Source of the DNA: Planctomycetota bacterium
GTDB taxonomy: Bacteria > Planctomycetota > PLA2
Assembly (NCBI GenBank): GCA_021776735.1
Contig: JAJFFH010000049.1
Span: forward strand, 5,523-69,522
Length of the DNA stretch: 64,000 bases
Direction of reading: 5' to 3'
Shown here: piece by piece, positions 1-51,371 of the stretch
How the letters are laid out: each line of letters opens with the position of its first letter
Position numbering within the stretch: the stretch's first letter is position 1
Notes under the pieces: model-generated
The model's input: the letters and a program-made list of their open reading frames with translations, nothing else
Told to the model about the DNA's origin: nothing
The model's database searches: none
Program-made: the position numbers and the translations under genes

Positions 1-386
1 GCCGCCGCCTCACGGCGAAAGCGCTCGACATGGCGCGGCGCGAGCAGCAAGAACGGATGCAGCACCTTGATCGCGACCGGTTGGTTCGTGCGCGTATCGA
101 GGGCGTGATAGACCGCGCCCATGCCGCCCCGTCCGAGTTCGCGGCGCAGCTCATAGGCACCCAACCGCCCCGAGAGCGGCGGCAACGGGTCCGGCGGCCC
201 CCCCTGCGCTCCCGGCGTCCCGAGGAGGTCGCGCGTCGAGATGGTCTCCTCGAGCAGACGGCGGGCCTTGTCGCGCAGGCCGGCGTCCGGGCACGCGCCT
301 TGCAAAAAGGCGTCGCGCTCGCCGGTCGGCAGAGCGCTGGCCTCCTCGACAAGCTCGTGAAGCCGCTGGTATCGCTCGGCGTCCAA
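1..386 (-). CDS. Ser/Thr protein kinase, N-terminal part (TTG start at 386..384, gene continues beyond window edge)
   Basis: Own reverse-complement translation: [111 protein letters not shown]. This carries the GxGxxG loop and VAIK lysine of Hanks-type kinases. An in-frame TAA lies immediately upstream. It is absent from the ORF track because no stop falls inside the window. Confidence 0.7.
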
Positions 387-420
387 AGCTTAGGCCCTGC
401 CCACTCTGTTCCCGCTCAAC

Positions 421-924
421 CTATCCACTGAGCCGTTCGGCCATCCAGGTCTTGGCCATTTTCCAGTCGAGTTCGACCGTGCGCAGCGCGGTCCCGAGCG
501 CCTCCCCGGCCTCCTCGTTGGTCAGCCCGGCGAAGAACTTGAGCTCCGCGAGACGCGCATGCCGTTCATTCACCGCCGCCAGCTCCTCGAGCGCCTCATG
601 GATCGCCAAGACGTCGAGGTCACGCCCCGGCACCGCCGCGTCGGCCAGCGTGACCCGCTGCGCCGTGCCGCCACCCCGCTTGAGCGCGGACCGATCCCGC
701 GCATGATTGACCAGAATCTGCCGCATGGCCTGCGCCGCCGTCCGAAAAAAGTGCGCCCGGTCGTTCCACCCCCCGGACCCCATCTTCAGATACGCCTCGT
801 GCACGACCGCTGTCGGCTGCAGGGTGTGCCCGACGTTCTGGCTGCTGAACAGCCGCCGCGCGTGCGCGTGCAACTCGTCGTAGAGCGCCCCAAACAGCGC
901 GTCCGCCTTAGCCGGGTTAGCCAT
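421..924 (-). CDS. ECF RNA polymerase sigma factor (TIGR02999-like subgroup typically paired with protein kinases)
   Basis: 167-aa ORF. Conserved sigma region 2 (HEAYLKM) and region 4 (LTNEEAGEALGTALRTVELDWKMAKTWM), a family signature recalled from memory. A kinase gene lies 35 nt downstream. Confidence 0.85.
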   Translation of the reverse strand: MANPAKADALFGALYDELHAHARRLFSSQNVGHTLQPTAVVHEAYLKMGSGGWNDRAHFFRTAAQAMRQILVNHARDRSALKRGGGTAQRVTLADAAVPGRDLDVLAIHEALEELAAVNERHARLAELKFFAGLTNEEAGEALGTALRTVELDWKMAKTWMAERLSG

Positions 925-984
925 CCCCCAAGTTTACCCAACCCGGCTTGCGGGTTCCGGCTCCGGACCGTGTTTTTTAGATCA

Positions 985-1473
985 ATGTGGCTCGACGGCA
1001 TCCTTGCCCAGGTTCCCGGTCTGAAGGATCGGCTGACCGCAGGCGCCAACGTATTCGCCGCAGTCGGCGCTGCCGCGAGTTCCGGAGCCGGTGATCTCAC
1101 CGACCTGGCCACCAGATTTCAGCGATCGAACTTCGTGGGCTTCTCCGGCTCGACCGGTTCAGCGGGTACAAGGCCGAGGCCGGAACGGACGGCGATTCTC
1201 TTGGCTCGCCGGGTGAATCTGCGCTGGGCCCGGCGCGGACCCGCGCACCTGGTCGATACCGCGCGTTTCGACCTCGTCGTGGTTGCGACCGCACTGGGCC
1301 CGGACCACGCCGAAGCCCTCTCCCGCATCCACGAAGCCCTGCGCCTCGGCGGCGTCCTGCTGCTGCGCGACCGTGCGGTGAAACTCCAAGCCCTGCGCGC
1401 AGCCGGCCTGCGCGAAGTTCACCCGAGAGCCGGATTCCTCGTCGCCCGCCGCCGCGCCGCCCGCAGCGCGTAG
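985..1473 (+). CDS. Class I SAM-methyltransferase-like fragment (motif I not recognisable; possibly degenerate)
   Basis: Only the 3' part of ORF 559..1473 is free of the antisense sigma gene. FDLVVVATALGPDHAEALSRIHEALRLGGVLLL resembles MTase motifs II/III. Contains one copy of the dispersed motif (1184..1199). Confidence 0.3.
   Translation: MWLDGILAQVPGLKDRLTAGANVFAAVGAAASSGAGDLTDLATRFQRSNFVGFSGSTGSAGTRPRPERTAILLARRVNLRWARRGPAHLVDTARFDLVVVATALGPDHAEALSRIHEALRLGGVLLLRDRAVKLQALRAAGLREVHPRAGFLVARRRAARSA
1184..1199 (-). repeat. Dispersed motif copy (AACGGACGGCGATTCT orientation)
   Basis: Core ATCGCCGTCCGTT. Inside coding frame, read as E-R-T-A-I-L. Confidence 0.6.
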
Positions 1474-1497
1474 GCCCGACCTCTGCCCCCGCGCCCC

Positions 1498-2418
1498 CTA
1501 TTTCTTACCCTTCTTGTTGGCGTTCTTGGCCGGCTTCATCACCTTGGCTTCTTTGCGCAGCTTCTCGATCAGCTTGGTGAAGGCCTCGGTCGTGATGCGG
1601 CCGGTGAAGTTGTTGAAGCGGACGACGCCCTTCGCGTCGCGGACGACGGTCCACGGCGTGCCGCCGGTGCCGTTCGTGGCCATCGTCGTGCTGAGTCGGG
1701 CGCCGTCGATGTGACCGTCGAAGCCGACCGGCACCGTCACGCCGTGACGCTTGGCCGCGGGCGGGCCGCGTTCGGGCGTGTTGGTTTGCGTGCCCTCCCA
1801 GACGGTCTGGAGATGCATGAACACGACGTCCTTGGCCTTGGCGAACTTCTGTTCCATCTCACGGTGGCGCGGGAACCCCACGCTGTGGCACCCCGGTCAC
1901 CAACTCTGGAACGTGTGCAGGACCAGGACCTTGCCCTTGGTGTTCTCCGGCGTCGGCGGCTCTTCGCCGTCCGCCACGTTGGCCCACTTGTACGCGTACC
2001 ACGGCAGCATCGCGTGGCCCGTGGGGCCGCCCGCGCGCGTGCCGCGCCGCTGTTGCGCGAGCGCGCCGCGATACGCCCGGCGCGCAACGAGCGTCGCCTT
2101 CACCGTGGCCTTCTTGCCTTTGCGCGTGTAGACCACGTCCACCTTGTCGCCGGCCCCGGCGGACCGCAGCGCCGCATCGACATCGGGCGCGCGCCTGATC
2201 GTCTTGCCGTTGATCTCGAGCAAGACATCGCCGTCCGTCAGCTTTGCCTTTTGGGCGGGCGAATCCTTGAGCACGTGCCCGATCACGACACCCTTTTTCG
2301 TCTCCGCCGAGACGATGCCGAGCAACGCGTCGTTTTGTGAGCGGTGATGGCCCTGGGCGAAGGCGACTTGGGCGAGAAGCAAAGAGGCCGTAAGCACACG
2401 GACGGCGATGTTTCGCAT
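1498..2418 (-). CDS. Exported PDZ + TlpA/redoxin-like thioredoxin-fold protein with in-frame UGA (1897..1899) read as selenocysteine (W-U-P-G-C)
   Basis: ORFs 1897..3375 (C-terminal part) and 1498..1881 are in the same frame and separated only by TGA. N-terminus MRNIAVRVLTASLLLAQVAFA is a signal peptide. PDZ-like stretch LLGIVSAETKKGVVIGHVLKDSPAQKAKLTDGDVLLEINGKTI. Thioredoxin fold KGKVLVLHTFQSW-U-PGCH...KDVVFMHLQ...HGVTVPVGFDG...TPWTVVRDAKGVVRFNN...EAFTKLIEKL. Hairpin 1867..1883 lies 13 nt 3' of the UGA. Confidence 0.75.
2393..2413 (-). repeat. Dispersed motif copy overlapping the start codon of the 1498..2418 gene (encodes M-R-N-I-A-V-R-V)
   Basis: AGCACACGGACGGCGATGTTT. Confidence 0.7.
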
Positions 2419-2468
2419 GCGATGAAGCCTAAACCCGCGTTGTCGGGCGTGCCACGCCCGTTTTGGGG

Positions 2469-3086
2469 CTACTTCGAGGCCGGGCGGCGGCGGCGTTTTT
2501 TTTGGGTCGGGGCCTCGTCGCCCCACTGGGTCCAGCCTTCGCGCGGGTGGCGGGCGAACATCTCCAGGTAGGGGCCGGGGCTGCAGGACTCCACGATGTC
2601 GTAGAACTCGTCGGGCTTGCGGCTGTGCTCGCGCTTGCGGGTGGCGAGCAGGTTCACCTGCCGGCGGCCGGGGGCCAGCGTGCGCATCGAGCCGCGCACG
2701 CCGAACAGGATCATCTCCGTGACGTTGCGGAAGTAAAAGCCGACTCCGCGCCCGTCCGGACCGCCGTCTTTGCGGACCTTGAACCAGACCAGGTTCGACT
2801 TGTACTTGAATCCCCAGGCGTCGAGCACCTCGAGCCCCTCGCGGATCAGCGCGTTGGGGCACCACAGGTAGAGGTGGCTTTTTTGGGCGGCGACCTCGGG
2901 CACGGGCAGCGCCAGGATTTCCTTGTGGGTCATCGTGCCGTAGCGCCGCAGCCGCTTGTGTTCGGGCGCCACTTTGCCGGTCCGGTTTTCGAACTGCCAC
3001 GGCGGATCCGCAAGAATCGTCTGAAACCCGTGCTCGCCGAGGGCGAGCAGGGTCCGGGCGGGGGCGTTTTTCCGGCGCGAGATCAT
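2469..3086 (-). CDS. MT-A70 family DNA N6-adenine methyltransferase (DPPW motif)
   Basis: 205 aa. ILADPPWQFENRTGK...YGTMTHKEILALPV...GFKYKSNLVWFKVRKDG matches the MT-A70/DPPW catalytic signature. Confidence 0.85.
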   Translation of the reverse strand: MISRRKNAPARTLLALGEHGFQTILADPPWQFENRTGKVAPEHKRLRRYGTMTHKEILALPVPEVAAQKSHLYLWCPNALIREGLEVLDAWGFKYKSNLVWFKVRKDGGPDGRGVGFYFRNVTEMILFGVRGSMRTLAPGRRQVNLLATRKREHSRKPDEFYDIVESCSPGPYLEMFARHPREGWTQWGDEAPTQKKRRRRPASK

Positions 3087-3142
3087 GGGAAGGCGCTAGT
3101 GGAGCATGCCGCACCCCCAAGGGGGCGCGCCAGAGCAGTGTT

Positions 3143-3847
3143 TCAGAGTAGCGTCGCCGCGCCGGTGGTCGTTTCCCCGTCGACGAGCGCTGCCGTGATG
3201 CCGAAGACCGCGATCGGGCAGCCGCCGCCCGCGCCGCCGCGCAGGCGGGGGAGGAGCCGGCCCATGTGGGTGGTCGCGGCGCCATAGCTGCTGTACTTGC
3301 CCAGCCGGCGAAACACGTCGTCGAGGTCGTCGGAACGTGTGACGATGACCCCGACGCTGACGACGTGCAGGTCAAACAGCAGCCGGAAGTTGTTTAGGTC
3401 GCGGTCGTAGAACGGATCCTTGTTGTTCCATTCGATTTCGAGCGCGATGCGGCCCTTGAAACAGTCGATCTTGTGCGTGGGGGACTCGTGGCGTTTGCCG
3501 TCCACGACGATGCTGGTGTCGAATCCGCGTTCCTCCCAGCCCAACGCCTCGAGCGCGCCGTCCAGCGAATGCGCGATCGCGCTCTTGTTCCCGCCGCCCG
3601 CGGCGATGTCTCTTTCCGCGAGCCGAAAGGCCGAAAGCACGCCCTCGATCTCCGCCCATTCCCGCGGAAACGCGCCGGTCAGGATCGCAAGCGCATGGCG
3701 CCACTCGTGCACCTCCCACCCGGGAAGCCGCGCGCGCACGTCTTCGACGTAGGTGCTCACCCCGAAAGAGTGCGCGCACGCGGCCCGAAACTCAATATTT
3801 GGCGCCGCTACCCGGTCTATTCGGTGCCGGTCGAACGTTCTTTCCAT
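3143..3847 (-). CDS. Putative Type II restriction endonuclease, BamHI-like PD-(D/E)XK fold
   Basis: Real start MERTFDRH inside ORF 3143..4558 (the upstream part is Arg-rich antisense junk). KIDCFKGRIALEIEWNNKD resembles the BamHI catalytic D...E-x-E segment. Directly adjacent to the MTase. Confidence 0.55.
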   Translation of the reverse strand: MERTFDRHRIDRVAAPNIEFRAACAHSFGVSTYVEDVRARLPGWEVHEWRHALAILTGAFPREWAEIEGVLSAFRLAERDIAAGGGNKSAIAHSLDGALEALGWEERGFDTSIVVDGKRHESPTHKIDCFKGRIALEIEWNNKDPFYDRDLNNFRLLFDLHVVSVGVIVTRSDDLDDVFRRLGKYSSYGAATTHMGRLLPRLRGGAGGGCPIAVFGITAALVDGETTTGAATLL

Positions 3848-4974
3848 TCGGGGGCGTGGCGGTCGTAGTCGCGCATCGCGCGCTGGACGGCCGATGCCAG
3901 CATCTGCGGCGAGCACATGTTGCGGCGGTCCGCGCTCTTCTTTTGGAGCTCGGCGTTCGGATACGGCGAGCCGGTGTCGGACGCCGCGGTCCAGGCGCGC
4001 CGCACAAGGCGGTCGTTCGGCCGGTTCTTCAAGATCCAGCCGAAGTGGAAGTTCGCCCAAGACATGGCGTCGAGGTGGTAGCACGCCTTGCCCGCCAAAA
4101 AGTGCAGCTCCGCCGAGAAACGAGTCGCCTCGTGCGCCTTGGCCGCCGGCTCGAGCATCTTGCGCGCGGCGGCCCACTTCTTTTGGTCCGTCAAGCGGTA
4201 GCCGTCCTCGACCGCGACGGGCGCGGCGTGTTTCTTGCCGGCGCGGAGCGGCGCGAGCAGCGCCTGTTGCGTTTTCCAGTCCTGGCGATAGCGCGCCAGA
4301 CGCGCCCGCGCGATCGCGTTGCCGTTCTTGGCGTACAACTTGTCCGCGTCGTCGTAGCGGCCGAGCTCGTCCAGCAGTCGCGCCGTCGCGGCGTCGCCCT
4401 TCACCAGGGCCTGTCTCTCGTCGGCCGTGGGCGCGGCGTACTGCGGATACTTCGCGAGCAGTTCCTGCAGCCAAACGAACACGTCGTTTTTGTCGGCGTA
4501 GATGCCGGTGCTCGACAGGTACTTGCCGTCCGGCGTAAACGCCGCGAAGAACGCCCACTTGTTGGGTACCTTCCCGCGCACGAAGTCCTTCGCCGCCTGG
4601 TCCTGTCCCTGGCCATGCGAACCCGTGGCGAAAAAGACCGGCACAAACCGGCGGTTGATCAGATCAATGACACGTTTTTCAGCGAAGGCACCTGCCCTCA
4701 TCGGTTCCGCGCCAGGTCACCAACTTCCCGCGGTGGCGCATGTAGCCCCCTTGGCATCGATCCCGAACGAGATTCCCTTGAGCACCAACAACCGGTTTCG
4801 CGCCTTCGCCGCCGCGCGCGCCTTGTCGAATTGCCCCGGCAGGAACCACCGAATCGACGACGTGTCGCTGGTCGTGTCGGCCTTCGGTTTTTGGGCCTCG
4901 GGAACATCAGCCGCAACAAGAAGCTGCACGACGGCGATGCACCCAACAATCAAAAACAAAGAAAAACGACGCAT
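3817..4974 (-). CDS. Exported Thioredoxin_7/DsbD-gamma-like protein with in-frame UGA (4717..4719) read as selenocysteine (S-W-U-P-G-A)
   Basis: ORFs 4717..4974 (signal peptide MRRFSLFLIVGCIAVVQLLVAA) and 3817..4701 are in the same frame and separated only by TGA. The read-through gives ...LLVLKGISFGIDAKGATCATAGSW-U-PGAEPMRAGAFAEKRVIDLINRRFVPVFF. This aligns with Thioredoxin_7 W-C-x-x-C followed by vfsdpevaellnenfvpv. Confidence 0.7.
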
Positions 4975-5061
4975 GGATCAGACCTCCACAAGCACTACGC
5001 GAACGAGGGAGTCCGCCTCCCGGTTGACGCAGTTTTTGACAGAGCGGGTCTCGCAAAAAAG

Positions 5062-5079
5062 CATCGCCGTCGGTTTGCT
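5062..5079 (+). repeat. Dispersed motif copy (1 mismatch), about 85 nt upstream of the 3817..4974 gene
   Basis: CATCGCCGTCGGTTTGCT preceded by an A6 run. Confidence 0.6.
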
Positions 5080-5113
5080 GTCCTTTGCGGGCCCAAGCCC
5101 GCAAGCCTTAACG

Positions 5114-5134
5114 AAAATCGCCCATGGCGATTTT
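5114..5134 (-). terminator. Perfect palindrome AAAATCGCC-CATG-GCGATTTT downstream of the HEAT-repeat gene
   Basis: 9-bp arms flanked by A/T runs immediately 3' of the gene ending at 5144. Confidence 0.4.
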
Positions 5135-5143
5135 CGCAGCGGC

Positions 5144-14993: not shown

Positions 14994-17900
14994 ATGGACG
15001 ACGCGCCCGAGGTGGAAGCTCTGCTGGCCCATGGCCGCTTTCTTCGTGCTCTTGCGCGCGACATTCTGCGCGACGCGCATCAGGCGGAGGACGTCGTGCA
15101 GGAGGCGTGGTTACGCGCCAGGAATCGAGCGCCGCGCAAGGCCGGAGCGATGCGGGCATGGCTCGCGCGCATCGTGCGCAATCTGGCGCTCGATCGGGTC
15201 CGCGCGGAACAGGCGAGGCGCCAGCGGGAAGTAGCCGTGGGCCGGGCAGCCGTGCGTCAGGGACGGACGGCGATGTCTGTGCCGCCGCCGGATGTGGCCG
15301 CACGGTTCGAGGTGCAAAAACGCACCGCCGACGCCGTTCTGGATCTTCCCGAGCCGTATCGATCGACGATCCTGATGCGGTACTTCGAAGACCTCGCGCC
15401 CCGAGAGATTGCGCGGCGGGTCGGCGTGCCGGGCGCGACCGTGCGCACGCGTGTCCGGCGCGGCCTGGCGATGTTGCGCAAGGCGCTGGACGAACGGTAT
15501 GGCCGGCGCGCGTGGCCCGCACTACTGGTCGTGGGAGGAGGCGTGATGGCGAAACTCAAGGGAGCGGCTGTTGTTGCCGCCGTTCTGGCTGTGATTGCGT
15601 TGACCGTGTGGCGGGTGCGGGCGGACCCGGAGCGGACCCGCGGACGTTCCTCGGAGGGGCGCCGGGCCGCCTCGACATCATCCGGATTGACGTTGGCAGA
15701 CAGCGCCGGCGACACGGTGTCGCATCGGTCGCGTCGCATCCTGAGCGGCGTCGTTCTCGAGACGTCCGGCCGACCCGCGTCCGGGGCCGTCGTCCGCTGG
15801 CGGCTGCGGCAGCCCGACCTCGGTTGGCAGCCCTTTCGGCATTCCGCTTTGCACAGCGGCTCGGCGACGTGTGACGACGCCGGGCGATTTCGGCTCTCGG
15901 TAGATCGTCGTGCCGGATCCCTGTCCGCAGTCAAGGACGGCGATGTCTCTCCGGACTGGGAGGTCGGAACCGGCGATCCCGGCGCTGGCCTGGTGCTGCA
16001 CCTGCGTACACCTGTTTCGGTCGTGATCAGGGTGATTGAAAATCGCGATCGACCCGTCACCGGCGCCCAGGTTCGCGTGGCGCCAACTCTGCTCGGTCCC
16101 TTCGCCGGCGACGTGCACGACGGGGCGACGGATTCGAGCGGTCGCGTGCGGATCGCAGGAGTGCAGCCCGGGTTCGCGTCGGTCGTCGTTCGTGCCGCTG
16201 GGTATGTGACGGCGGTGCGGCGTGCCGTGCGATTGCCCGGGAATGACGTCGTCGTTCGTCTGCGTCGGGGCCGTCCATTCTTTGGCATTGTCTGCGATGC
16301 CGGCGCCGTGCCGGTACAAGACGCTCGTGTGCGTTGGGTCTCGGCGCATGAACACGCCCTGGGCGGTGAGCAGCGCACCGACGCCGGGGGGCGGTTCTTG
16401 GTTCCCGCGCTACCGGCTGGGAGGATCGCGTTTTTCGTGGAGGCCGGTGCGACAGGGCAGGCGTATCACGTCTGTGCGCGGCCGGCGGGCCGGAGCGTGG
16501 GGGAGCGGCAACGATTCGCGCTGGATCCGCCCGTCGGGCTCGAGGGGCGCGTGTGGATGGGCGAGAAGAGCGCGCGGCGGCCGCTGGTGGGAATCCCGGT
16601 ACGGGTTTCCGGCGCCGAGTTTTTTCATGTGACGAACCGCGGCACGTTCGGTGTTCGCGTCATTCGTTTCGGGTCTCTATCGCGGCGAGCCGTCACGGAC
16701 GCCGACGGTCGTTTTGCATTCGCCGGACTTTCGCACCGGGCCACGCAACTCAGCCTTGCGCCGCCGTTCTACGTTGTGAAGCGGCTTGCCGGCGGCGACG
16801 TGCAGGCGGCGCGTGCGGGCCGGGTGCACGGGACCGTTCGCGACGAAGCTGGTCGTCCGGTCGCCGGCGCGGTCGTCTTGCGTCCCGGCGGCGAGGGTTA
16901 TCGCAACATCACCAACGCCAAGGGACAGTATGAATTGTCCCTTGTTCCGGGGGCGAAACGGGCCGTGCGTCTCGACGTGTTCAAAGACGGATTCACGCGC
17001 GTGCAGCGAGGCGTCTCGTCGGCCGGAGCGATCGACTTTCGGTTGGCGCGAGTGTCTTCGATCGACGGCCGCGTTGTATCCGCCGCCGGGCGGCCTATTC
17101 TCGGCGTGAAGGTCGGACCCGTGCGCAACACGGTCTTCACCGATCGCGATGGTCGGTTTCGTTTCTTCCGAAGCCCGGAAACGACCAGCGTCCCGTTCGT
17201 CCACGAATCCTACGAGTATCGGAGCGTGGAGCTTTCGGACGAAGCGACAGTCGTGCTCTCGCCGGCCCCGGTCCGTGTCTTCGTCCGGGGGCGGGTTCTG
17301 GACACGAAGGGAGAGCCGATCGGAGAAGCGGACGTGACCTGGCGATCCGAAGGGAGGCACGAGGCTGCCATAACCGACGGCCGCGGCCGTTTCGAGCTCG
17401 GCCTCGCGGCGGGTGCCTGGACCGTCGTGGTCGAACGCGACGGCTACGCTCCGTGGCGGCGCGAGGATGTCGATGTGCCGCGGGCCGAGCTCCTGGAGAT
17501 CATCGTGCGATCGGGCTCGTCGATTGCCGGTCGCGTCGTGGACGCAGGGGGCGCCGCCGTCGCGGGAGCGACCGTGATCGTTTCTGGTCCCCGCGACGCT
17601 GGCAAGGCACGAAACTGGCGCGCGACGACCGGTGTGGACGGCGGCTTTCACGTGGACGATCTGCCCCATGGACAGTTCGCGGTCATTGCCGCCGGCCCGA
17701 GCTCGGCGGCCGGCCACGACCGGGCTCATGACGTAGCTGCGGACACGGTCGACCTGGAGCTGCGTTTTGCCGCGTCTCGAGCACTGAGCGGCCGCGTGTT
17801 CGATCCGGATGGCCGGCCGTGGCCGGGCGTCGGGATCGTCGTGCGCGTCACCGACGCGGACTTGCGGCGGCACCGACTGCGACGTGATCGTGTCAGCGCG

Positions 17901-18380
17901 GTAACGGACGGTGACGGCCGCTTTCACGTCAAGGGGCTCCACGGTACCCACGCCACGATCGCAGTTGACACGAATCGCGGCTCACGCGCGGAGACCTACA
18001 TGCAGCAGGATCTGCGCGTGGAGCCGGGACAGCGCGACATCGAGATTCGGGTGCGGACCGAACGGACGATCACCGGTCGCGTGCTGGATCCGAAGGGGGC
18101 GCCTGTCGCTGGCGTATGGGTCTCGATCACAGATGTCGCGACCAGCAGCGGCGCGCGGCTGACCACGGACGGCGATGGGCGGTTCCGATTCCATGGCCGG
18201 AGTCGGGCGACCTACGAGTTTTCCGCGTCCGCCCGCCGCATTCCGTTTGGCCCCGGCATGTGGGGCTTCGCGTGGGCAGGCAAAACGACCGCCGGTGCCG
18301 GGACGAATTCGGTGACGGTCGCGTTGCAGGTGGATCAAAACGCGGTTCGGATGGCGGAGCGCGCCCGCCGTGGCCGGTGA
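14994..18380 (+). CDS. ECF sigma factor fused in frame to a TM helix and about 900 aa of CarboxypepD_reg-like repeats
   Basis: N-terminal 180 aa carry sigma region 2 (EDVVQEAWLRA) and region 4 (LDLPEPYRSTILMRYFEDLAPREIARRVGVPGATVRTRVRRGLAMLRKAL). This is followed by TM helix MAKLKGAAVVAAVLAVIALTVW. Then come repeated GRVVDAGGAAVAGATVIVSGP / GRVLDPKGAPVAGVWVSI / TDGDGRFRF units. There is no stop codon between the parts. Confidence 0.8.
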   Translation: MDDAPEVEALLAHGRFLRALARDILRDAHQAEDVVQEAWLRARNRAPRKAGAMRAWLARIVRNLALDRVRAEQARRQREVAVGRAAVRQGRTAMSVPPPDVAARFEVQKRTADAVLDLPEPYRSTILMRYFEDLAPREIARRVGVPGATVRTRVRRGLAMLRKALDERYGRRAWPALLVVGGGVMAKLKGAAVVAAVLAVIALTVWRVRADPERTRGRSSEGRRAASTSSGLTLADSAGDTVSHRSRRILSGVVLETSGRPASGAVVRWRLRQPDLGWQPFRHSALHSGSATCDDAGRFRLSVDRRAGSLSAVKDGDVSPDWEVGTGDPGAGLVLHLRTPVSVVIRVIENRDRPVTGAQVRVAPTLLGPFAGDVHDGATDSSGRVRIAGVQPGFASVVVRAAGYVTAVRRAVRLPGNDVVVRLRRGRPFFGIVCDAGAVPVQDARVRWVSAHEHALGGEQRTDAGGRFLVPALPAGRIAFFVEAGATGQAYHVCARPAGRSVGERQRFALDPPVGLEGRVWMGEKSARRPLVGIPVRVSGAEFFHVTNRGTFGVRVIRFGSLSRRAVTDADGRFAFAGLSHRATQLSLAPPFYVVKRLAGGDVQAARAGRVHGTVRDEAGRPVAGAVVLRPGGEGYRNITNAKGQYELSLVPGAKRAVRLDVFKDGFTRVQRGVSSAGAIDFRLARVSSIDGRVVSAAGRPILGVKVGPVRNTVFTDRDGRFRFFRSPETTSVPFVHESYEYRSVELSDEATVVLSPAPVRVFVRGRVLDTKGEPIGEADVTWRSEGRHEAAITDGRGRFELGLAAGAWTVVVERDGYAPWRREDVDVPRAELLEIIVRSGSSIAGRVVDAGGAAVAGATVIVSGPRDAGKARNWRATTGVDGGFHVDDLPHGQFAVIAAGPSSAAGHDRAHDVAADTVDLELRFAASRALSGRVFDPDGRPWPGVGIVVRVTDADLRRHRLRRDRVSAVTDGDGRFHVKGLHGTHATIAVDTNRGSRAETYMQQDLRVEPGQRDIEIRVRTERTITGRVLDPKGAPVAGVWVSITDVATSSGARLTTDGDGRFRFHGRSRATYEFSASARRIPFGPGMWGFAWAGKTTAGAGTNSVTVALQVDQNAVRMAERARRGR
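15261..15278 (-). repeat. Dispersed motif copy inside the sigma-fusion gene linker (encodes G-R-T-A-M-S)
   Basis: GGACGGACGGCGATGTCT. Confidence 0.65.
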
Positions 18381-20948: not shown

Positions 20949-22196
20949 ATGAAAACGGGCGTCATCCTCCTCTTGCTCGGCGGCCTCGTGATGGCCCAGA
21001 GCAATCGCTTCGAAAAGCCGGTGCGGCTCAAGGCTGCCGGGAAGGTCATTACGACCGAGGTCGGCCACTCCGCGCCGTATGTGTACGATTGGGACGGCGA
21101 CGGCGTGCGTGATCTGTTGGTCGGGCAGTTCGGCCAGGGCAAGCTGCGCATCTTTCGCAATGCGGGCACGAACAAGGCGCCGCGCTACGAGGAGGGCGTG
21201 TGGTTTCAGGCGGGCGGTGCGCTGGCGACCGTTCCCGCGGGGTGATGCGTCGGTTTTGGTCCGCAGTTGGCGGACCTCAATGGCGATGGGCACGACGACG
21301 TCCTGAGCGGGTCGTACTGGCCCGGGAACATCTTTGTCTTTGACGGCGAAGGCAAAGCGATGTTTGCCAAGCGCCGGGCGCTCGTCGATGAATCGGGTCA
21401 AAAGCTGCACGGGGCGACGCCGTGGCCGGACGAGAAGACTCCCAACATGGACAGCCTCGCTGCGGCGCCGTGGCTCATCGACTTCGATGCCGACGGCGAT
21501 CTCGATCTCCTGATCGGCAACATCGCGGGGCGCGTCATCTTGATCGACAACCTGGGGTCGAAGAAGGCGCCGAAGTTTGCGCGTACGCGCGTGCGGCTGC
21601 AGGCGGGCGGCAAGGATATCCGCGTGCCCGGAGGAGATGCCGGTCCGACGACGGTGGATTGGGACGGCGACGGAAAGTGGGATCTGCTGGTCGGCGCCGG
21701 TGATGGATCGGTCTGGTGGTATCGCAATGTCGGACGCAACGGGGCGCCCGAGTTCGCCGCCGGTGTGAGGCTTATTGACGCGCCGGCACGGGGCGGCGGA
21801 CCGGTGCCGTGGACGGACGAGCCGAAGGAACACGGTTCGCGCACCAAGGTTCATGCGGTCGATTACGACGGCGACGGGCGCCTCGATCTGCTGGTGGGCG
21901 ATTTCAACATGCTCAAGCAGGCCGAGCCCAGGCTGAGCGAGACGCAGACCCAAAAGCGCGACGCGTTGCGTGCGGAGCGGTCCGAACTGCAGACGCGGCT
22001 CAACGACGTGTTCAAGAAGTACAAAACCTTGGAGGACAGGGCCAAACGTGAAGCGGCGATGAAGCCGATCACCGCGCGGTTCACCGCGATCTTCAACGAG
22101 CTGCGCCCCTTCGAGGCCAAAAACGACCCGACCGGATGGGTCTGGCTGTTCGTGCGCAAGACACCTGCCGACTCGAACGCGCCTGTGGGCGAGTAG
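20949..22196 (+). CDS. Secreted FG-GAP/VCBS-repeat (beta-propeller) protein interrupted by in-frame TGA at 21243..21245 (candidate Sec codon or pseudogene)
   Basis: ORFs 20919..21245 and 21267..22196 share a frame and are separated only by TGA. The repeat unit continues across it (...ATVPAG-U-CVGFGPQLADLNGDGHDDVL). A perfect 7-bp hairpin GGTCCGC-AGTTG-GCGGACC (21258..21276) lies 12 nt 3' of the TGA. Confidence 0.55.
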
Positions 22197-22217
22197 GACC
22201 GAGCTCCACCGACTCAC

Positions 22218-22263
22218 ACCTCCGGACCGGGATCACCTACAATCCCGGTCCGGAGGTTTTTCT
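22218..22263 (+). terminator. Rho-independent terminator (14-bp perfect stem + T5)
   Basis: ACCTCCGGACCGGGA-tcacctacaa-TCCCGGTCCGGAGGTTTTT directly after the FG-GAP gene. Confidence 0.8.
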
Positions 22264-22264
22264 T

Positions 22265-24082
22265 ATGAAGCTCGGTGGTTACGCGAATCGCATCGGACAT
22301 GTCGATCTGACGGCTTGGACGGTCGAAAACAAGCCCATCCGCGAGGAGTGGGCTCGAAAATACATCGGGGCGCGCGGCCTGGGCGTGCGCTACCTGCTCC
22401 AAAACGGGCCCGATGTCGATCCGCTCTCGCCCGACAACCTCCTGTGCTTCATGAACGGGCCGTTGACCGGCACGGCGGCGACGATGAGCGGTCGGCTCGC
22501 TGTTGTCACGAAGTCGCCGTTGACCGGCACCGCGACGGACAGCCATCAGGGCGGCTGGTCGGCGGCGCGGTTGCGTTGGGCGGGCTTTGACGGGCTCGTG
22601 ATTCGCGGCCGGGCGGACAAGCCGGCGTACCTCTACGTGTCGGACGACACCGTTGAGATTCGCGACGCCTCCGACGTGTGGGGCCAAGGGGTTCACGACA
22701 CCGTGGCGCACTTTCGCGCGAAGTACGGCGAGAAGGATCTGACCGTCATCGCCATCGGGCCGGCGGGCGAGAACCAGGTCCGTTTTTCGGCGTGGATCAA
22801 CGAGAACGATCGCGCGGCCGGGCGCGGCGGCACCGGCTGTGTCGGCGGCAGCAAGAACCTGAAGGCGATCGTCGTGAAGGCGAAGAAGGTGCTGCCGCAG
22901 CCCGCGGACAAGGACGCGTGGAAACCGGCGCACCAGCGCGCGCTCAAAACGATCATGGATCCCGGCAACGTGACCGCGCCAAACAAGGGCGGTCTGTCGG
23001 TCTACGGCACCAACGTGCTGATGAACATCACCAACACGATGGGGGCGCTGCCGACGAACAACTCCCAGACGACCTCGTTCGGCGAAGGCGGCGAGAAAAT
23101 CAGCGGCGAGTACGTCCGCGAGCACATGCTCGTCGAGGAGCCGACGTGCCACGCGTGCCCGGTCGCCTGCAAGAAGATGGTCGAGGTCAAGGACGGCCCG
23201 TTCAAGGGCGTGCGCATGGAGAGCTTCGAGTACGAGCCGGCGTGGTCGCTCGGCGCGAACTGCGGCAATGACGACGCGAACTCGATCGCGAAGATGATCG
23301 ATCTGGCCAACGACCACGGCTTCGATGCAATCGAGATCGGCGGCATCCTGTCGGCGTACATGGAAGCGACCGAACGCGGCCTTGCGGGCGACAACGGGCT
23401 CGCCTGGGGCGACGTGCCCGGCATGATTGCCACCATCGAACAAACCGTGCGTCGTGAGGGCATCGGCGACGTGCTGGCGAACGGCATCGAGCCGACCGCC
23501 ACGCATTTCGGCGCGCCCGAGACCGGCATGCACGTCAAAAACCAGGGCCTGCCGGCCTACGATCCGCGTGGCATGAAGGGCATGGGCCTGGCGTACGCCA
23601 CCTCGAACCGCGGCGCGTGTCACCTGCGCGCGTATACGCCGGCCAGCGAACTCGGCCTGATCCCGATGAAGACCGACCCGCTCGCCTGGAAGGGCAAGGG
23701 CGATCTCGTAAAACTGATGCAGGACCTGCACGCGTTTTCCGACAGCCTCGACCTGTGCAAGTTCAGCGCGTTCGCCGAGGGGGCGGAAGAGTACGCCCAA
23801 CAGTACTCGGCAATTGTCGGGGTGCCGTTCACGGTCGACGACGTGTTGCAGACCGGCGAACGCATCTACAACCTGGAGCGCCGCTACAACAACCTCGCGG
23901 GTTTCGGCGAGGGCGCCGACACCCTGCCGAAGCGCTACACGAGTGAAGCGTCCACGATGAAGGGCTCGGAAGGCCACGTCTGCGAGCTGAACGACATGCT
24001 CAAGGAGTACTACACCGCGCGCGGCTGGACCGACGGCGGCGTTGTGCCGGACGAGAAGCTGGCCGAGCTTGGGGTGACCTAA
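22265..24082 (+). CDS. aor: Aldehyde:ferredoxin oxidoreductase (tungsten-type AOR family)
   Basis: 606 aa. N-terminal AOR domain (GGYANRIGHVDLT...GARGLGVRYLL). Cys motifs EPTCHACPVACKKM. C-terminal AOR domains. Confidence 0.9.
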   Translation: MKLGGYANRIGHVDLTAWTVENKPIREEWARKYIGARGLGVRYLLQNGPDVDPLSPDNLLCFMNGPLTGTAATMSGRLAVVTKSPLTGTATDSHQGGWSAARLRWAGFDGLVIRGRADKPAYLYVSDDTVEIRDASDVWGQGVHDTVAHFRAKYGEKDLTVIAIGPAGENQVRFSAWINENDRAAGRGGTGCVGGSKNLKAIVVKAKKVLPQPADKDAWKPAHQRALKTIMDPGNVTAPNKGGLSVYGTNVLMNITNTMGALPTNNSQTTSFGEGGEKISGEYVREHMLVEEPTCHACPVACKKMVEVKDGPFKGVRMESFEYEPAWSLGANCGNDDANSIAKMIDLANDHGFDAIEIGGILSAYMEATERGLAGDNGLAWGDVPGMIATIEQTVRREGIGDVLANGIEPTATHFGAPETGMHVKNQGLPAYDPRGMKGMGLAYATSNRGACHLRAYTPASELGLIPMKTDPLAWKGKGDLVKLMQDLHAFSDSLDLCKFSAFAEGAEEYAQQYSAIVGVPFTVDDVLQTGERIYNLERRYNNLAGFGEGADTLPKRYTSEASTMKGSEGHVCELNDMLKEYYTARGWTDGGVVPDEKLAELGVT

Positions 24083-40557: not shown

Positions 40558-42969
40558 TTGCCGGAAGTCGCATTCCATGATGGGGGCGTGAGGGCGTGGG
40601 CTGGACTACTTCTGGTTGTGCTCGCCGCGTCGCTTGCCAGGACGCTGCCGGCGTGGGACCACGTTTTCGTCGGTGAGCGTGGCATCCGGCTCCTCGGGTC
40701 GGACGCGTACTATCACCTGCGCCACGCCGGACACATGCGGACCGACGGTGCCCTGCGGCGCGACGACGTCTGGACGCACTATCCGACCGGCCAGCGTGCC
40801 ACGACCCCCGGACTCTTTGCCGTGGCCGTCGCCGCGCTACCCAACGCGGCCCTCCCCTTTGTTCCCCCCGCGCTGGGGGCCCTCGCGTTGCTGGCTCTTT
40901 TTGTCTTGTTGCGCCGCCTCGCCGGATCGGGAGCCGCGCTGCTTGGCGTGGCCTGCCTCGCTCTTTACCCGGGGCAGTTTCTCTCGCGGTCGCTGCTCGG
41001 TTTTTTGGATCATCACGCCGCGGAGGTTCTGCTCTCCCTGCTCTCGGTGCTCGGATTCTTGCGTTGCCTCGATCGCGCAGAGTCCGACGCGCCGCCGAAG
41101 TGGTGGCGCCCCGCTTTCCTCGAAGCGCTACCCATGGCGGTCTTTTTGTTCACCTGGTCGGGAGCGCCCGTCCACCTGCTGCTCCTGGCCCTGAGTGTCG
41201 CGGTCCTCGCCATCGTGCGGCTGGCGATCCACGGCGACTCCGGATGGCTGCCCGAGGCGTGCGCACGCTTTGGTTTCGGGCTCGTCCCCCTCGTGGCGAT
41301 TCCGGCCTGGATCGCTCCCTGGCTCGTGATGCGGCCCGACCTGTTCGCCGCCGTGCTCGCCGGGTGTGCCGCGTTCGCGTGCGCCGCGGCACCCGTGCTA
41401 TGGGCCGTCCGCCGTTACGGCCGTCCCCGCCTTGCCGCCGCGCTGTTGATGATTGCGATGGCGGCGGTCCTTGTGGCCGGCGCCAACACCAGCGCCGGGG
41501 CGCTGCTCTTGAGGACCCGGACGCGGCTCGTCTCCGAGCACCTGACCATCACGCCCGCTTCGGTTTTTGTGGACTACGGCACCATGCTCGTGCTCGCCGT
41601 CGGGGGACTTGCGGCTGCTGGAGTGTGCGTGCGCCGGGACCGCGGGCGACGCGTGTTCGGCACGACGTACGCCCTGTTGGTCGTCGCGCTGTGGTGGAAG
41701 ACGCGTGATTTTGCGTACATGGCCGGACCGTTCCTCGCGCTCCTGGCCGGGTTCGCCTGGTTGCCGACCCTGCGGCTCCTGCAGCGCCCGCGGAGGGCAA
41801 CCGTCGCGGGCGTCGTTACGCTTGCGTTGCTCGCCGGACCGATCTGGCCCTTGGGCCTGTCGCCGCGCCCGTGGCCGTCGCGGTCCTACGTGGATCGGAT
41901 CGTGGTCTGCACGGATGCCTGGGCCGAGGCTGTTTCCTGGCTGCGCACCAAGACGCCACCGCCTACGATCGATGCCGACAAGCCCGTCGCGCCGTTTGGG
42001 GACTTTGCGTATCCGACGGGAACCTACGGCGTGTGGTCGGCCTGGGACTATGCGAATCTCGTCAACGCGTTCGGCCGCCGGCCCGTAGTCTGGAGTCAGG
42101 GGGCGGCGCGCCATCCGGTGCAATGGATGTTGGAGCGCGACGAGAACGAAGCCCTCTCGCTGCTTCAGCAGTCGTGCCGGGGGCCGGAGCGCGTTCGCTA
42201 CGTCATGCTCGACGCGAACACCATGGGCGACAACTATCTCGCGCATCTGACGGCCGCCGGCCATGACATCGCGGCGCTGGGTCGCGGCCTCGTCGATCGG
42301 CCCGTCGGTCAGGCGACGTTCGGCGAGCGCCTGGACAACACGGTGGCAGCTCGCCTGTACTTTCGGGACGGCGATGGACTGCGGCGCTTTCGTCTGGTCT
42401 ATGCCACGACCCAGAGGACGTTCGTGGGCTACGTCGCGCAGACCCGTGGTGCGGGGGCGGTGATTCGCCGCTGCGCGATCCCGGCGGACGGTTTCGACAC
42501 GCGGATGCGACTCGAGATGATCGCCCAACGCGGCGGCGTGACCGAGGTGAAAGATGTCGGCTACGTCTACGGTGGCGTGGTGGAGCAGACCATCAAGGTG
42601 TTTGAGTGCGTCGAGGGCGCACGGGTGCAGGGCCGGACGCGCGCGCGTGCGGTCGTCACGGCCGGCCTCGACTTGATCGACGCGGCGAACAGCCGACGAC
42701 ACTACACGCAAGAGACCCGTGCCGGCGCCGACGGCCGATTCTCGATGCGCATTCCGTACGCTACCGACGCGCGCGCGGGGAGCGTTCGGGCGCGCGGCAA
42801 GCTGGCTCTCGTGGCGCGCGTCTCCGAGCGCAGCGTGATCGCGCGATCGGCGGTCCGGATCACCGAGCAACAGGTGCAGAGCGGCGGCATGGTCGAGGTC
42901 GATCTGCTGCCCACTCAAGCGCCCCCGACGCCCCCGACCCCGATCCCGCCGCCGAAAGGAGACGGGTAG
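40558..42969 (+). CDS. STT3/PglB/AglB-like oligosaccharyltransferase (multi-TM N-domain + periplasmic C-domain, divergent WWDYG motif)
   Basis: About 13 predicted TM helices. First loop SDAYYHLRHAGHMRTDG resembles the AglB/STT3 D-x-x-YH-R loop. C-domain YGVWSAWDYANLVNAFG aligns with the WWDYG block. Confidence 0.55.
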   Translation: MPEVAFHDGGVRAWAGLLLVVLAASLARTLPAWDHVFVGERGIRLLGSDAYYHLRHAGHMRTDGALRRDDVWTHYPTGQRATTPGLFAVAVAALPNAALPFVPPALGALALLALFVLLRRLAGSGAALLGVACLALYPGQFLSRSLLGFLDHHAAEVLLSLLSVLGFLRCLDRAESDAPPKWWRPAFLEALPMAVFLFTWSGAPVHLLLLALSVAVLAIVRLAIHGDSGWLPEACARFGFGLVPLVAIPAWIAPWLVMRPDLFAAVLAGCAAFACAAAPVLWAVRRYGRPRLAAALLMIAMAAVLVAGANTSAGALLLRTRTRLVSEHLTITPASVFVDYGTMLVLAVGGLAAAGVCVRRDRGRRVFGTTYALLVVALWWKTRDFAYMAGPFLALLAGFAWLPTLRLLQRPRRATVAGVVTLALLAGPIWPLGLSPRPWPSRSYVDRIVVCTDAWAEAVSWLRTKTPPPTIDADKPVAPFGDFAYPTGTYGVWSAWDYANLVNAFGRRPVVWSQGAARHPVQWMLERDENEALSLLQQSCRGPERVRYVMLDANTMGDNYLAHLTAAGHDIAALGRGLVDRPVGQATFGERLDNTVAARLYFRDGDGLRRFRLVYATTQRTFVGYVAQTRGAGAVIRRCAIPADGFDTRMRLEMIAQRGGVTEVKDVGYVYGGVVEQTIKVFECVEGARVQGRTRARAVVTAGLDLIDAANSRRHYTQETRAGADGRFSMRIPYATDARAGSVRARGKLALVARVSERSVIARSAVRITEQQVQSGGMVEVDLLPTQAPPTPPTPIPPPKGDG

Positions 42970-42970
42970 C

Positions 42971-49246: not shown

Positions 49247-49256
49247 GGTCCTGGTC

Positions 49257-50330: not shown

Positions 50331-50336
50331 GGCCCG

Positions 50337-51353: not shown

Positions 51354-51371
51354 CGGCCGGGCAAGCGCGTC

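What the first reader, a model, noticed from the sequence alone, without database searches (positions are those of the whole stretch)
1498..2418. Unannotated selenoprotein: exported PDZ + TlpA/redoxin-like protein with UGA at the catalytic position (W-U-P-G-C)
The ORF track splits this gene into 1897..3375 and 1498..1881. Both ORFs are in the same frame and are separated by a single TGA (1897..1899). Reading through gives ...KGKVLVLHTFQSW-U-PGCHSVGFPRH..., which puts the UGA exactly where thioredoxin-fold proteins have the nucleophilic Cys of WCxxC. The sequence before and after it is one continuous TlpA/ResA-like fold (KDVVFMHLQ / HGVTVPVGFDG / TPWTVVRDAKGVVRFNN / EAFTKLIEKL). Without read-through the fold would be cut in the middle of its active site. 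A GC-rich hairpin (GCGUGGG-GUU-CCCGCGC, 1867..1883) starts 13 nt 3' of the UGA, where a bacterial SECIS element is expected. The N-terminus is a signal peptide plus a PDZ domain.
Basis: partly seen in the sequence, partly recalled or inferred. Interest (0 to 1): 0.85.

Follow-up and report, generated by a model that had tools for sequence, protein, structure and literature searches.

The report
Unannotated exported PDZ–thioredoxin-fold selenoprotein gene
A gene that annotation splits in two at a TGA "stop" almost certainly encodes one exported redox enzyme with selenocysteine at its active site, a solid but fairly ordinary new member of a known class of bacterial selenoproteins.

Summary
Window 1498..2418 (minus strand) is one 306-codon frame with a single TGA at 1897..1899. 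That TGA sits exactly where 82 distinct homologues have the first Cys of an invariant FQSW-C-PGC motif.

- **Conservation of the TGA:** the same TGA-for-Cys substitution, with the frame open on both sides, occurs in 14 other sequences that are only 40-57% identical to this protein. They come from Planctomycetota, Krumholzibacteriia and Verrucomicrobiae MAGs and from metagenomes, and they fall at five or more separate places in the family tree.
- **SECIS element:** all 15 TGA forms carry a 7-bp hairpin with a GUU loop starting 13 nt after the UGA. Four of its seven pairs show compensatory changes. The hairpin is absent from Cys forms, including GC-matched ones, and it meets all four published bacterial SECIS criteria.
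- **Fold:** an AlphaFold model (pLDDT 85) and PDB matches (3EYT, 3LOR, DipZ, ResA) show one continuous TlpA-like thioredoxin fold. The Sec lies at the N-terminus of the active-site helix, behind a signal peptide and a PDZ domain.
- **Not shown:** no selA, selB, selC or selD was found, because the rest of the genome was out of reach. There is no biochemistry.

UxxC TlpA/redoxin-like selenoproteins are already catalogued, so this is a new member of a known kind.

The parts
1498..2418 (-). Complete selenoprotein gene: 306 codons including Sec174, from ATG 2416..2418 to TAG 1498..1500
   Evidence: Single frame with one internal TGA. Annotation splits it into a 173-aa and a 119-aa gene (P0001). Full-length Cys and Sec homologues align end to end.
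2356..2418 (-). Predicted Sec-type signal peptide, residues 1-21 (MRNIAVRVLTASLLLAQVAFA|QG)
   Evidence: The sequence shows a basic n-region, a hydrophobic core and an A-F-A site. It forms an N-terminal helix 2-23 in the model. Orthologues have equivalent N-termini. No signal-peptide predictor was run, so this is an inference.
2092..2331 (-). PDZ domain, residues 30-109
   Evidence: Pfam PDZ_2 53.2 bits (cut-off 27), PDZ 40.6, PDZ_6 39.4. Foldseek matches the PDZ domains of DegQ, DegS and HtrA.
1537..1998 (-). TlpA-like thioredoxin-fold domain, residues ~141-294, with a U-P-G-C redox motif
   Evidence: phmmer against PDB: 3LOR E 8.5e-13 and 3EYT E 2e-11, both aligned across the active site. 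AlphaFold pLDDT 85, with strand 164-170 followed by helix 176-191. Foldseek TM 0.82-0.84 to 3EYT/3LOR, plus DipZ C-terminal domain, ResA and DsbE. Pfam Redoxin scores 23.0 bits, below the 26.6 cut-off.
1897..1899 (-). In-frame UGA = selenocysteine codon (residue 174), aligned with the first Cys of CPGC
   Evidence: There are 15 distinct TGA forms and 82 distinct TGY forms at this codon in the family.
1888..1890 (-). TGC, Cys177: the resolving cysteine of the UxxC motif
   Evidence: Nearly invariant in the family alignment.
1867..1883 (-). SECIS hairpin GCGUGGG-GUU-CCCGCGC. Its apex is encoded by the Gly181-Phe182-Pro183 codons GGG-UUC-CCG.
   Evidence: Present in register in 15/15 Sec forms, with 91.4% of cells paired, 4/7 pairs compensatory and 0/500 shuffles as good. 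RNAalifold predicts exactly this helix for Sec forms (-10.76) and not for Cys forms (-0.66). Sec forms average 6.4/7 pairs against 3.0/7 for Cys forms, p = 7e-10. It meets the bSECIS criteria quoted.

Best explanation
Window 1498..2418 (-) is one gene for an exported, about 285-residue mature protein. It has an N-terminal PDZ domain and a C-terminal TlpA-like thioredoxin-fold domain whose redox motif is Sec-Pro-Gly-Cys.

**How the UGA is decoded (inferred from the established bacterial pathway).** The UGA at 1897..1899 is read as selenocysteine. The 7-bp hairpin with a GUU loop, 13 nt downstream (1867..1883), acts as a bacterial SECIS. It would recruit SelB-GTP-Sec-tRNA(Sec) to the ribosome while the UGA is in the A site.

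**What the protein does (inferred from the fold family).** It would work in the periplasm as a thiol/selenol-disulfide oxidoreductase. Sec174 attacks a substrate disulfide or an oxidised thiol. Cys177 then resolves the mixed selenenylsulfide. The oxidised enzyme is probably re-reduced by a CcdA/DsbD-type membrane electron shuttle. The PDZ domain probably tethers substrate C-termini or unfolded envelope proteins.

**Shown here:** the in-frame UGA/Cys pair, conservation of the TGA across divergent genomes, the covarying SECIS-like hairpin specific to TGA forms, and the continuous fold.

**Inferred only:** SelB-dependent decoding, export, substrate and reductant.
For: 1. **Sec/Cys pair.** The TGA aligns with the first Cys of the invariant FQSW-C-PGC-HSxGFP motif.
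2. **Conserved TGA.** A GTDB-wide pattern scan found 10 species-level genomes with TGA at this codon and open frames on both sides. A metagenome scan added 4 more. These proteins are only 40-57% identical to the window protein, so the TGA has been kept over long divergence. All family-invariant residues downstream of the TGA (QTV.EG, TGGTPW and others) are retained.
3. **Spread across the tree.** Sec forms sit at five or more separate positions in an NJ tree among Cys forms.
4. **SECIS.**
   - The same-register hairpin is present in 15/15 Sec forms.
   - 91.4% of cells are paired, 4/7 pairs show double-sided changes, 0/500 shuffles do as well, and slid controls give 48-69%.
   - RNAalifold recovers it de novo for Sec forms only.
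   - Sec forms average 6.4/7 pairs against 3.0/7 for Cys forms (p 7e-10). GC-matched Cys forms average 3.3/7 (p 3e-7).
   - The Gly codon supplying the loop G is GGG in 15/15 Sec forms against 12/82 Cys forms (Fisher p 1e-10).
5. **Published bSECIS criteria met** (criteria quoted): a 3-nt loop, a 7-bp stem, G then U at the first loop positions, 20 nt from UGA to loop, and a hairpin MFE of -10.9 kcal/mol.
6. **Fold.** The PDB sequence and fold matches span the site, and Sec174 sits between strand 164-170 and helix 176-191.
7. **Standard code.** TGA is an ordinary stop for about 20 of 49 predicted window ORFs.
8. **Reproducible sequence.** An independent assembly has the identical sequence.
9. 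**Lineage plausibility.** Complete Sec-insertion gene sets are documented in several Planctomycetes (PMC4807772).
Against: - No selA, selB, selD or tRNA-Sec was found in the 64-kb window, in the 4.7 kb beyond it (L001), or in the 14 related loci. The rest of the genome could not be searched, so the Sec-decoding trait of this organism is unverified.
- The window hairpin alone is not more stable than shuffled GC-rich sequence (z +0.35).
- Rfam has no matching model.
- The hairpin apex overlaps the conserved Gly-Phe-Pro codons, so part of its conservation is protein-coding constraint. The contrast with Cys forms argues against this being the whole story.
- In the fixed register, five of the 15 Sec forms fall short of 7/7 pairs. 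L036 (4/7) and L124 (6/7) have a bulge or mismatch and a 17-nt hairpin MFE of only about -4.4, while L012, L065 and L090 form 5-bp stems at -7.9.
- There is no conserved gene neighbourhood to support a specific substrate or reductant.
- There are no expression or selenium-labelling data.
Confidence: 0.9

Rival explanations
1. Pseudogene or sequence error: a TGC/TGT to TGA nonsense change, or a miscalled base, has inactivated an ordinary Cys-type TlpA-like gene.
For: It is a single-base difference from a Cys codon. NCBI and Logan gene calls treat it as a stop. No sel genes were found nearby.
Against: The same TGA is present in 14 other homologues that are 40-57% identical, always with an intact downstream frame and all invariant residues. 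A TGA-specific covarying hairpin accompanies it. An independent assembly gives the identical sequence.
Confidence: 0.02
2. Two separate products: translation really stops at the UGA, giving a secreted 173-residue PDZ-only protein, and the downstream 127-codon ORF (GTG at 1881) is translated on its own or not at all.
For: This is how the gene callers annotate it. Sec insertion is usually inefficient, so a truncated PDZ product is likely to be made as a by-product, especially when selenium is scarce (general knowledge).
Against: The split falls inside the CxxC active site, between a strand and its helix of one compact fold. The five codons between the UGA and the GTG (PGCHS) are conserved family residues. 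The GTG codon is not conserved in other Sec forms. The C-terminal piece would lack both a signal peptide and the nucleophile.
Confidence: 0.03
3. SelB-independent recoding: the UGA is read through by a near-cognate or suppressor tRNA (inserting Trp, Cys or Gly), or the organism uses a reassigned UGA, with the hairpin only stimulating read-through.
For: The Sec machinery was not observed. Downstream hairpins can stimulate stop-codon read-through in general.
Against: TGA ends about 40% of the predicted ORFs in the window, so there is no global reassignment. The recoded position is precisely the redox nucleophile whose homologues have Cys, which is the signature of Sec. The hairpin fits the bSECIS geometry, and its invariant loop G (followed by U, as the model commonly has it) meets that model's loop requirement. 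Carriers span three phyla with a standard code.
Confidence: 0.05

Closest known systems
[quoted passage not shown] 2005) and 'Redoxin family protein' (PF08534, UxxC; GOS 2008 / Peng 2016), as listed in the 2026 review PMC13188914
   Same: Thioredoxin-fold TlpA-like domain, Sec as the first residue of a UxxC motif, widespread Cys homologues, and a SECIS immediately downstream within the coding sequence.
   Different: I could not retrieve their representative sequences (MGB1650493.1, HEU0032618.1), so identity with the FQSW-U-PGC subfamily is untested. No catalogue entry or paper I found mentions an N-terminal PDZ fusion of this type or this motif.
Trx7/PDZ domain-containing (seleno)protein, NCBIfam NF041199 ('MucD-like' PDZ fusion of the GOS studies)
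   Same: A bacterial selenoprotein that combines a thioredoxin-like domain with a PDZ domain.
   Different: Only the PDZ region matches (34 bits against a cut-off of 300). That family has a CxxU motif and the PDZ lies in the middle of the protein (profile positions 199-272 of 390). Here the motif is UxxC and the PDZ is N-terminal. The window protein is not a member.
PDB 3EYT (SPOA0173, Silicibacter pomeroyi) and 3LOR (Corynebacterium glutamicum 'thiol-disulfide isomerase'): structural-genomics TlpA-like proteins with an FQMLCPGC motif
   Same: They are the closest solved relatives of the redox domain: E 1e-11 to 1e-12, 27% identity, TM 0.82-0.84. They share the FQxxCPGC...GxP...TVFE...GTP motifs.
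   Different: They have Cys rather than Sec, no PDZ domain, and no assigned function.
ResA / CcmG(DsbE) / TlpA / DipZ C-terminal domain: periplasmic reductases fed by CcdA/DsbD
   Same: Same fold class and an extracytoplasmic CxxC reductase architecture. They are the basis for the proposed mechanism.
   Different: Sequence similarity is only remote (E 0.007-0.1). There is no cytochrome c maturation or CcdA/DsbD gene context here or in the related loci.
E. coli fdhF/fdnG SECIS and the bSECISearch consensus model
   Same: A stem-loop inside the coding sequence just 3' of the UGA, a small apical loop starting with G-U, and a UGA-to-loop spacing within 16-37 nt.
   Different: The sequence is unrelated. 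The loop is a minimal 3 nt and most copies have no bulged U. The apex is hard-wired to Gly-Phe-Pro codons.

Membership tests
Bacterial selenoprotein gene (Sec-UGA plus bSECIS) | In-frame UGA aligned with a conserved, catalytically relevant Cys in homologues (a Sec/Cys pair) | tested here: met
   The TGA at 1897..1899 aligns with the first Cys of FQSWCPGC in 82 distinct Cys forms.
Bacterial selenoprotein gene (Sec-UGA plus bSECIS) | TGA-containing homologues in other organisms with conserved sequence on both sides of the TGA | tested here: met
   14 further TGA forms from three phyla and from metagenomes, 40-57% identical to the window protein.
Bacterial selenoprotein gene (Sec-UGA plus bSECIS) | bSECIS model: apical loop of 3-9 nt, upper stem of 4-16 bp, G in the first two loop positions, 16-37 nt from UGA to loop, MFE <= -7.5 kcal/mol (PMC13188914) | tested here: met
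   Loop GUU, 7-bp stem, 20 nt spacing, MFE -10.9 for the 17-nt hairpin. Covariation supports the helix.
Bacterial selenoprotein gene (Sec-UGA plus bSECIS) | Genome encodes selA, selB, selC (tRNA-Sec) and selD | not testable with these tools
   None is present in the window, in L001 or in the related loci. Only 64 kb of the genome, plus 4.7 kb in L001, was accessible.
Bacterial selenoprotein gene (Sec-UGA plus bSECIS) | Selenium actually incorporated at the UGA position | not testable with these tools
   This needs 75Se labelling or mass spectrometry.
TlpA-like / redoxin thioredoxin-fold oxidoreductases (cd02966, PF08534) | Thioredoxin fold with the CxxC motif at the N-terminus of helix alpha-1 | tested here: met
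   AlphaFold pLDDT 85, with strand 164-170, then W-U-P-G-C, then helix 176-191. Foldseek TM 0.82-0.84 to 3EYT/3LOR and 0.7-0.76 to ResA/DsbE.
TlpA-like / redoxin thioredoxin-fold oxidoreductases (cd02966, PF08534) | Pfam Redoxin (PF08534) score at or above the gathering threshold | tested here: not met
   23.0 bits against a cut-off of 26.6 (E 7.4e-5), with U replaced by C. Homologues do carry precomputed PF08534/PF00578 hits. Membership therefore holds at superfamily and fold level, as a divergent subfamily.
Trx7/PDZ (seleno)protein NF041199 | Full-length match at or above the 300-bit cut-off, with a CxxU motif | tested here: not met
   34.1 bits, PDZ region only. The motif here is UxxC.
PDZ domain (PF13180 / PF00595) | Pfam score above the gathering threshold | tested here: met
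   PDZ_2 53.2 bits (cut-off 27), PDZ 40.6 (23.2), PDZ_6 39.4 (27).

The most novel reading that the evidence does not exclude
The FQSW-U-PGC proteins, with or without the N-terminal PDZ, may be a selenoprotein family and fusion architecture missing from current catalogues and from NCBI's selenoprotein models, which would explain why it is systematically annotated as two truncated genes.

Its SECIS apex is built from the family-invariant Gly-Phe-Pro codons (GGG-UUC-CCN). Any Cys form is therefore only a few synonymous and flanking changes away from a working SECIS. Such a 'pre-adapted' SECIS would explain why Sec forms appear at five or more separate places in the tree, and why a Cys form (L154) still carries a SECIS-like hairpin.
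Probability: 0.35. Interest if true: 0.5.

Novelty: new member of a known kind. Interest (0 to 1): 0.42.

Why it matters
**Annotation.** The gene is mis-annotated in public records as a 173-aa PDZ protein plus a 119-aa orphan. At least 14 related genomes or contigs have the same in-frame TGA and would presumably be mis-split in the same way. An NCBIfam-style selenoprotein model for this subfamily would repair the annotation.

**Biology.** It adds an exported, PDZ-tethered UxxC oxidoreductase to the selenoproteomes of Planctomycetota-like bacteria, and it marks these MAGs as probable Sec users.

**Evolution.** The set of 15 Sec and 82 Cys forms, with a SECIS laid over invariant codons, is a clean natural data set. 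It could be used to study how Cys-to-Sec switches and SECIS elements arise inside coding sequence.

It does not change any principle, because UxxC thioredoxin-fold selenoproteins are the commonest kind known.

Tried and rejected
- **Rfam.** Neither the gathering-threshold scan of the window nor the permissive scan of 1700..2050 gave a SECIS hit, only chance matches. Rfam has no general bacterial SECIS model.
- **Single-sequence folding.** The z-score was +0.35, uninformative in GC-rich DNA.
- **Search for Sec machinery.**
  - ARAGORN on the window and on 15 loci found only tRNA-Pro.
  - Pfam scans of 29 window ORFs found no SelA, SelB or SelD domains.
- **Other TGA-interrupted genes in the window.** A scan turned up only gene boundaries and antisense frames.
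- **Recovering the 86-kb NCBI contig or organism name.** The look-up of encoding contigs on the AcrB-like ORF found nothing on record. The cluster look-up gave no accession or name.
- **Gene-neighbourhood comparison.** Across 8 related loci there was no conserved partner and no CcdA/DsbD.
- **Literature.** A search for the motif strings found nothing relevant. The GOS and ISME papers do not describe this subfamily by name.
- **Rejected readings.** A reassigned UGA code is excluded by TGA stops elsewhere. Membership of NF041199 is excluded.

Full report
**1. The observation**

On the minus strand, 1498..2418 is a single reading frame of 306 codons. It runs from the ATG at 2416..2418 to the TAG at 1498..1500 and is interrupted once, by the TGA at 1897..1899, in the context ...KGKVLVLHTFQSW-TGA-PGCHSVGFPRH.... 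The upstream part of the long ORF is spurious, because it runs through the neighbouring MT-A70 methyltransferase gene at 2469..3086 in another frame.

Public gene calls make the same split, into a 173-aa PDZ protein (P0001, 100% identical, from NCBI and Logan) and a 119-aa downstream ORF. An independently assembled Logan contig (L001, SRR15505515) matches window 1..5138 with no mismatch, so the TGA is reproducible. The hairpin GCGUGGG-GUU-CCCGCGC lies at 1883..1867, 13 nt after the UGA.

**2. The protein**

With U replaced by C, Pfam finds a PDZ domain at residues 30-109 (PDZ_2, 53 bits). It also gives sub-threshold Redoxin, Thioredoxin_2 and AhpC-TSA matches that span residues 156-283, across the TGA.

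The N-terminus MRNIAVRVLTASLLLAQVAFA|QG has the form of a Sec signal peptide. This is by inspection, plus the fact that it is a helix in the model.

A sequence search of the PDB aligns residues about 154-271 with two structural-genomics TlpA-like proteins: 3LOR (E 8.5e-13) and 3EYT (E 2e-11). CPGC aligns on CPGC.

An AlphaFold model built from the homologue alignment has a mean pLDDT of 85. It places residue 174 between strand 164-170 and helix 176-191, the canonical thioredoxin-fold nucleophile position. Foldseek gives TM 0.82-0.84 to 3EYT/3LOR, then the DipZ C-terminal domain, ResA and DsbE. The PDZ domain matches those of DegQ, DegS and HtrA. The fold would therefore be cut through its active site if translation stopped at the UGA.

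**3. Homologues: a Sec/Cys pair conserved across phyla**

A search of the protein database returned many homologues with the invariant motif FQSW-C-PGC-HSxGFP...QTVFEG...TGGTPW. Among them are full-length PDZ+redoxin proteins (P0002-P0005), and the TGA aligns with the first Cys.

I scanned the GTDB species-representative genomes for the DNA pattern F-Q-S-W-TGA-P-G-C. Of the 38 hits, 10 are true family members with open, conserved frames on both sides of the TGA. They come from:
- five Planctomycetota or Planctomycetales MAGs;
- two Krumholzibacteriia MAGs;
- one Verrucomicrobiae MAG;
- one unclassified MAG;
- one partial locus.

It added 4 more TGA forms and supplied the Cys forms, 82 distinct in all.

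The TGA forms are only 40-57% identical to the window protein, so the TGA has survived long divergence. That excludes a nonsense mutation or a sequencing error. Ten of the TGA forms have the PDZ domain and four are stand-alone redox domains. In a neighbour-joining tree the TGA forms occupy at least five separate positions among Cys forms.

**4. The SECIS element**

All 15 distinct TGA forms have a hairpin in the same register: 13 nt of spacer, a 7-bp stem and a GUU loop.

| Test | Sec (TGA) forms | Cys forms |
|---|---|---|
| Cells paired in the named structure | 91.4% | – |
| Slid-register controls | 48-69% | – |
| Shuffles reaching the observed covariation score | 0/500 | – |
| RNAalifold consensus energy | -10.76, predicting exactly this helix | -0.66 (all 82); -0.82 (24 GC-rich) |
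| Pairs formed in the fixed register | 6.4/7 | 3.0/7 (p 7e-10); 3.3/7 for 25 GC-matched (p 3e-7) |
| Mean local MFE (kcal/mol) | -11.4 | -4.2 |
| Gly codon is GGG | 15/15 | 12/82 (p 1e-10) |

- Four of the seven pairs show double-sided (compensatory) changes, for example G-C, C-G, U-A and A-U at one position.
- The apex is encoded by the invariant Gly-Phe-Pro codons. The third base of the Gly codon is the first loop nucleotide, which is why its GGG bias matters.
- The element meets all four constraints of the published bSECIS model: loop of 3-9 nt, stem of 4-16 bp, G in the first two loop positions (commonly followed by G or U), 16-37 nt from UGA to loop (here 20), and MFE <= -7.5 (here -10.9).

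Caveats:
- The window hairpin alone is no more stable than shuffles of this GC-rich sequence.
- Rfam has nothing comparable.
- In the fixed register, five of the 15 Sec forms fall short of 7/7 pairs. L036 (4/7) and L124 (6/7) have a bulge or mismatch and a hairpin MFE of only about -4.4, while L012, L065 and L090 form 5-bp stems at -7.9.

**5. What could not be shown**

- There is no tRNA-Sec in the window or in the 15 loci scanned.
- No SelA, SelB or SelD domains appear among 29 window ORFs or in the L001 gene calls.
- No other TGA-interrupted gene candidate is present in the window.
- The rest of the genome was inaccessible: the contig look-up failed and the cluster entry gave no accession or name.

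TGA is a normal stop for about 20 of 49 predicted ORFs in the window, so the code is standard. Complete Sec-insertion gene sets are documented in several Planctomycetes (PMC4807772). The trait is therefore plausible for this GC-rich, Planctomycetota-like organism. The taxon itself is inferred only from the source names of the nearest homologues.

**6. Mechanism**

Shown here: a UGA/Cys pair at the redox nucleophile, a TGA-specific covarying SECIS-like hairpin, and a continuous exported-type PDZ+TlpA-like architecture.

Inferred from established knowledge of bacterial Sec decoding: SelB-GTP-Sec-tRNA(Sec) binds the hairpin and delivers Sec to the UGA.

Inferred from the TlpA/ResA/CcmG/DipZ fold family:
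- the mature periplasmic protein reduces or isomerises disulfides, or oxidised thiols;
- it does so through a Sec174-Cys177 selenenylsulfide;
- it is re-reduced by a CcdA/DsbD-type shuttle;
- the PDZ domain recruits substrates.

No conserved neighbourhood supports a specific partner. A truncated PDZ-only product is a likely by-product when selenium is limiting.

**7. Comparison with what is known, and novelty**

The 2026 review of prokaryotic selenoproteomes (PMC13188914) already lists four related entries:
- 'Redoxin family protein' (PF08534, UxxC);
- a 'UGC-containing TlpA' family;
- a 'Trx7/PDZ' CxxU family (NF041199).

The first of these dates from the 2005 Sargasso Sea study. The window protein is not a member of NF041199: it scores 34 bits against a cut-off of 300, in the PDZ region only, and the motif orientation is different. 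No NCBIfam model captures its redox domain, which explains the missed annotation.

I found no paper mentioning this motif or an N-terminal PDZ fusion to a UxxC TlpA-like domain. I also could not compare it with the catalogue's representative accessions.

The safest classification is a new, unannotated member of a known kind of bacterial selenoprotein. There is a moderate chance that the subfamily or fusion has not been catalogued.

**8. Verdict**

- Confidence that this is a genuine Sec-encoding gene is about 0.9.
- The residual doubt is the unverified Sec machinery.
- Interest is moderate (about 0.4). The case is clean and well supported, and useful for annotation and for studying SECIS evolution, but it would not surprise specialists.

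Noticed in passing
window 40558..53144: An STT3/AglB-like oligosaccharyltransferase (40558..42969, Pfam STT3 2.9e-18, AglB_L1 3.7e-14) is followed by a Bac_transf sugar transferase (42971..44275), several GT4/GT2 glycosyltransferases and a radical-SAM/SPASM protein. This is an N-glycosylation-like cluster in a bacterial contig.
   Followed up: no
window 2469..3760 (-): A putative type II restriction-modification pair lies directly upstream of the selenoprotein gene: a BglII-like endonuclease (3143..3760) and an MT-A70 methyltransferase (2469..3086).
   Followed up: no
window 14994..18380 (+): A 1128-aa ORF fuses ECF sigma-70 regions 2 and 4 at its N-terminus to about seven CarboxypepD_reg repeats. 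This is an unusual sigma-factor fusion, or two genes merged by my ORF choice.
   Followed up: no
window 22136..24082 (+): An aldehyde:ferredoxin oxidoreductase (AFOR_N + AFOR_C, E 1e-123), normally a tungsten/molybdopterin enzyme of anaerobes.
   Followed up: no
L154 (metagenome locus), 16-33 nt after the TGT at the active-site codon: A Cys-form homologue keeps a SECIS-like hairpin, GCCGGGG-GUU-CCCGGCG (local MFE -13.8), with the GGG Gly codon. It may be a recent Sec-to-Cys switch or a pre-adapted state.
   Followed up: partly
L010 ~1300..1440 (3' end of the Sec-form gene): The Verrucomicrobiae Sec form ends in a tail of tandem (E/G)(K/R)RRAA repeats before its stop codon. I did not check whether it is translated or is a mis-set stop.
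   Followed up: no
window 421..924 (-) and L001 4753..8499; L036 5186..7327: An ECF sigma factor and a large Ser/Thr kinase with TPR repeats lie next to the selenoprotein gene in this genome. A Ser/Thr kinase with TPR repeats also lies near the Sec form in L036. This is probably coincidence.
   Followed up: no
P0004 (closest Cys-form PDZ homologue): The active-site motif is FQSK-C-VGC instead of FQSW-C-PGC, a variant of otherwise nearly invariant residues.
   Followed up: no
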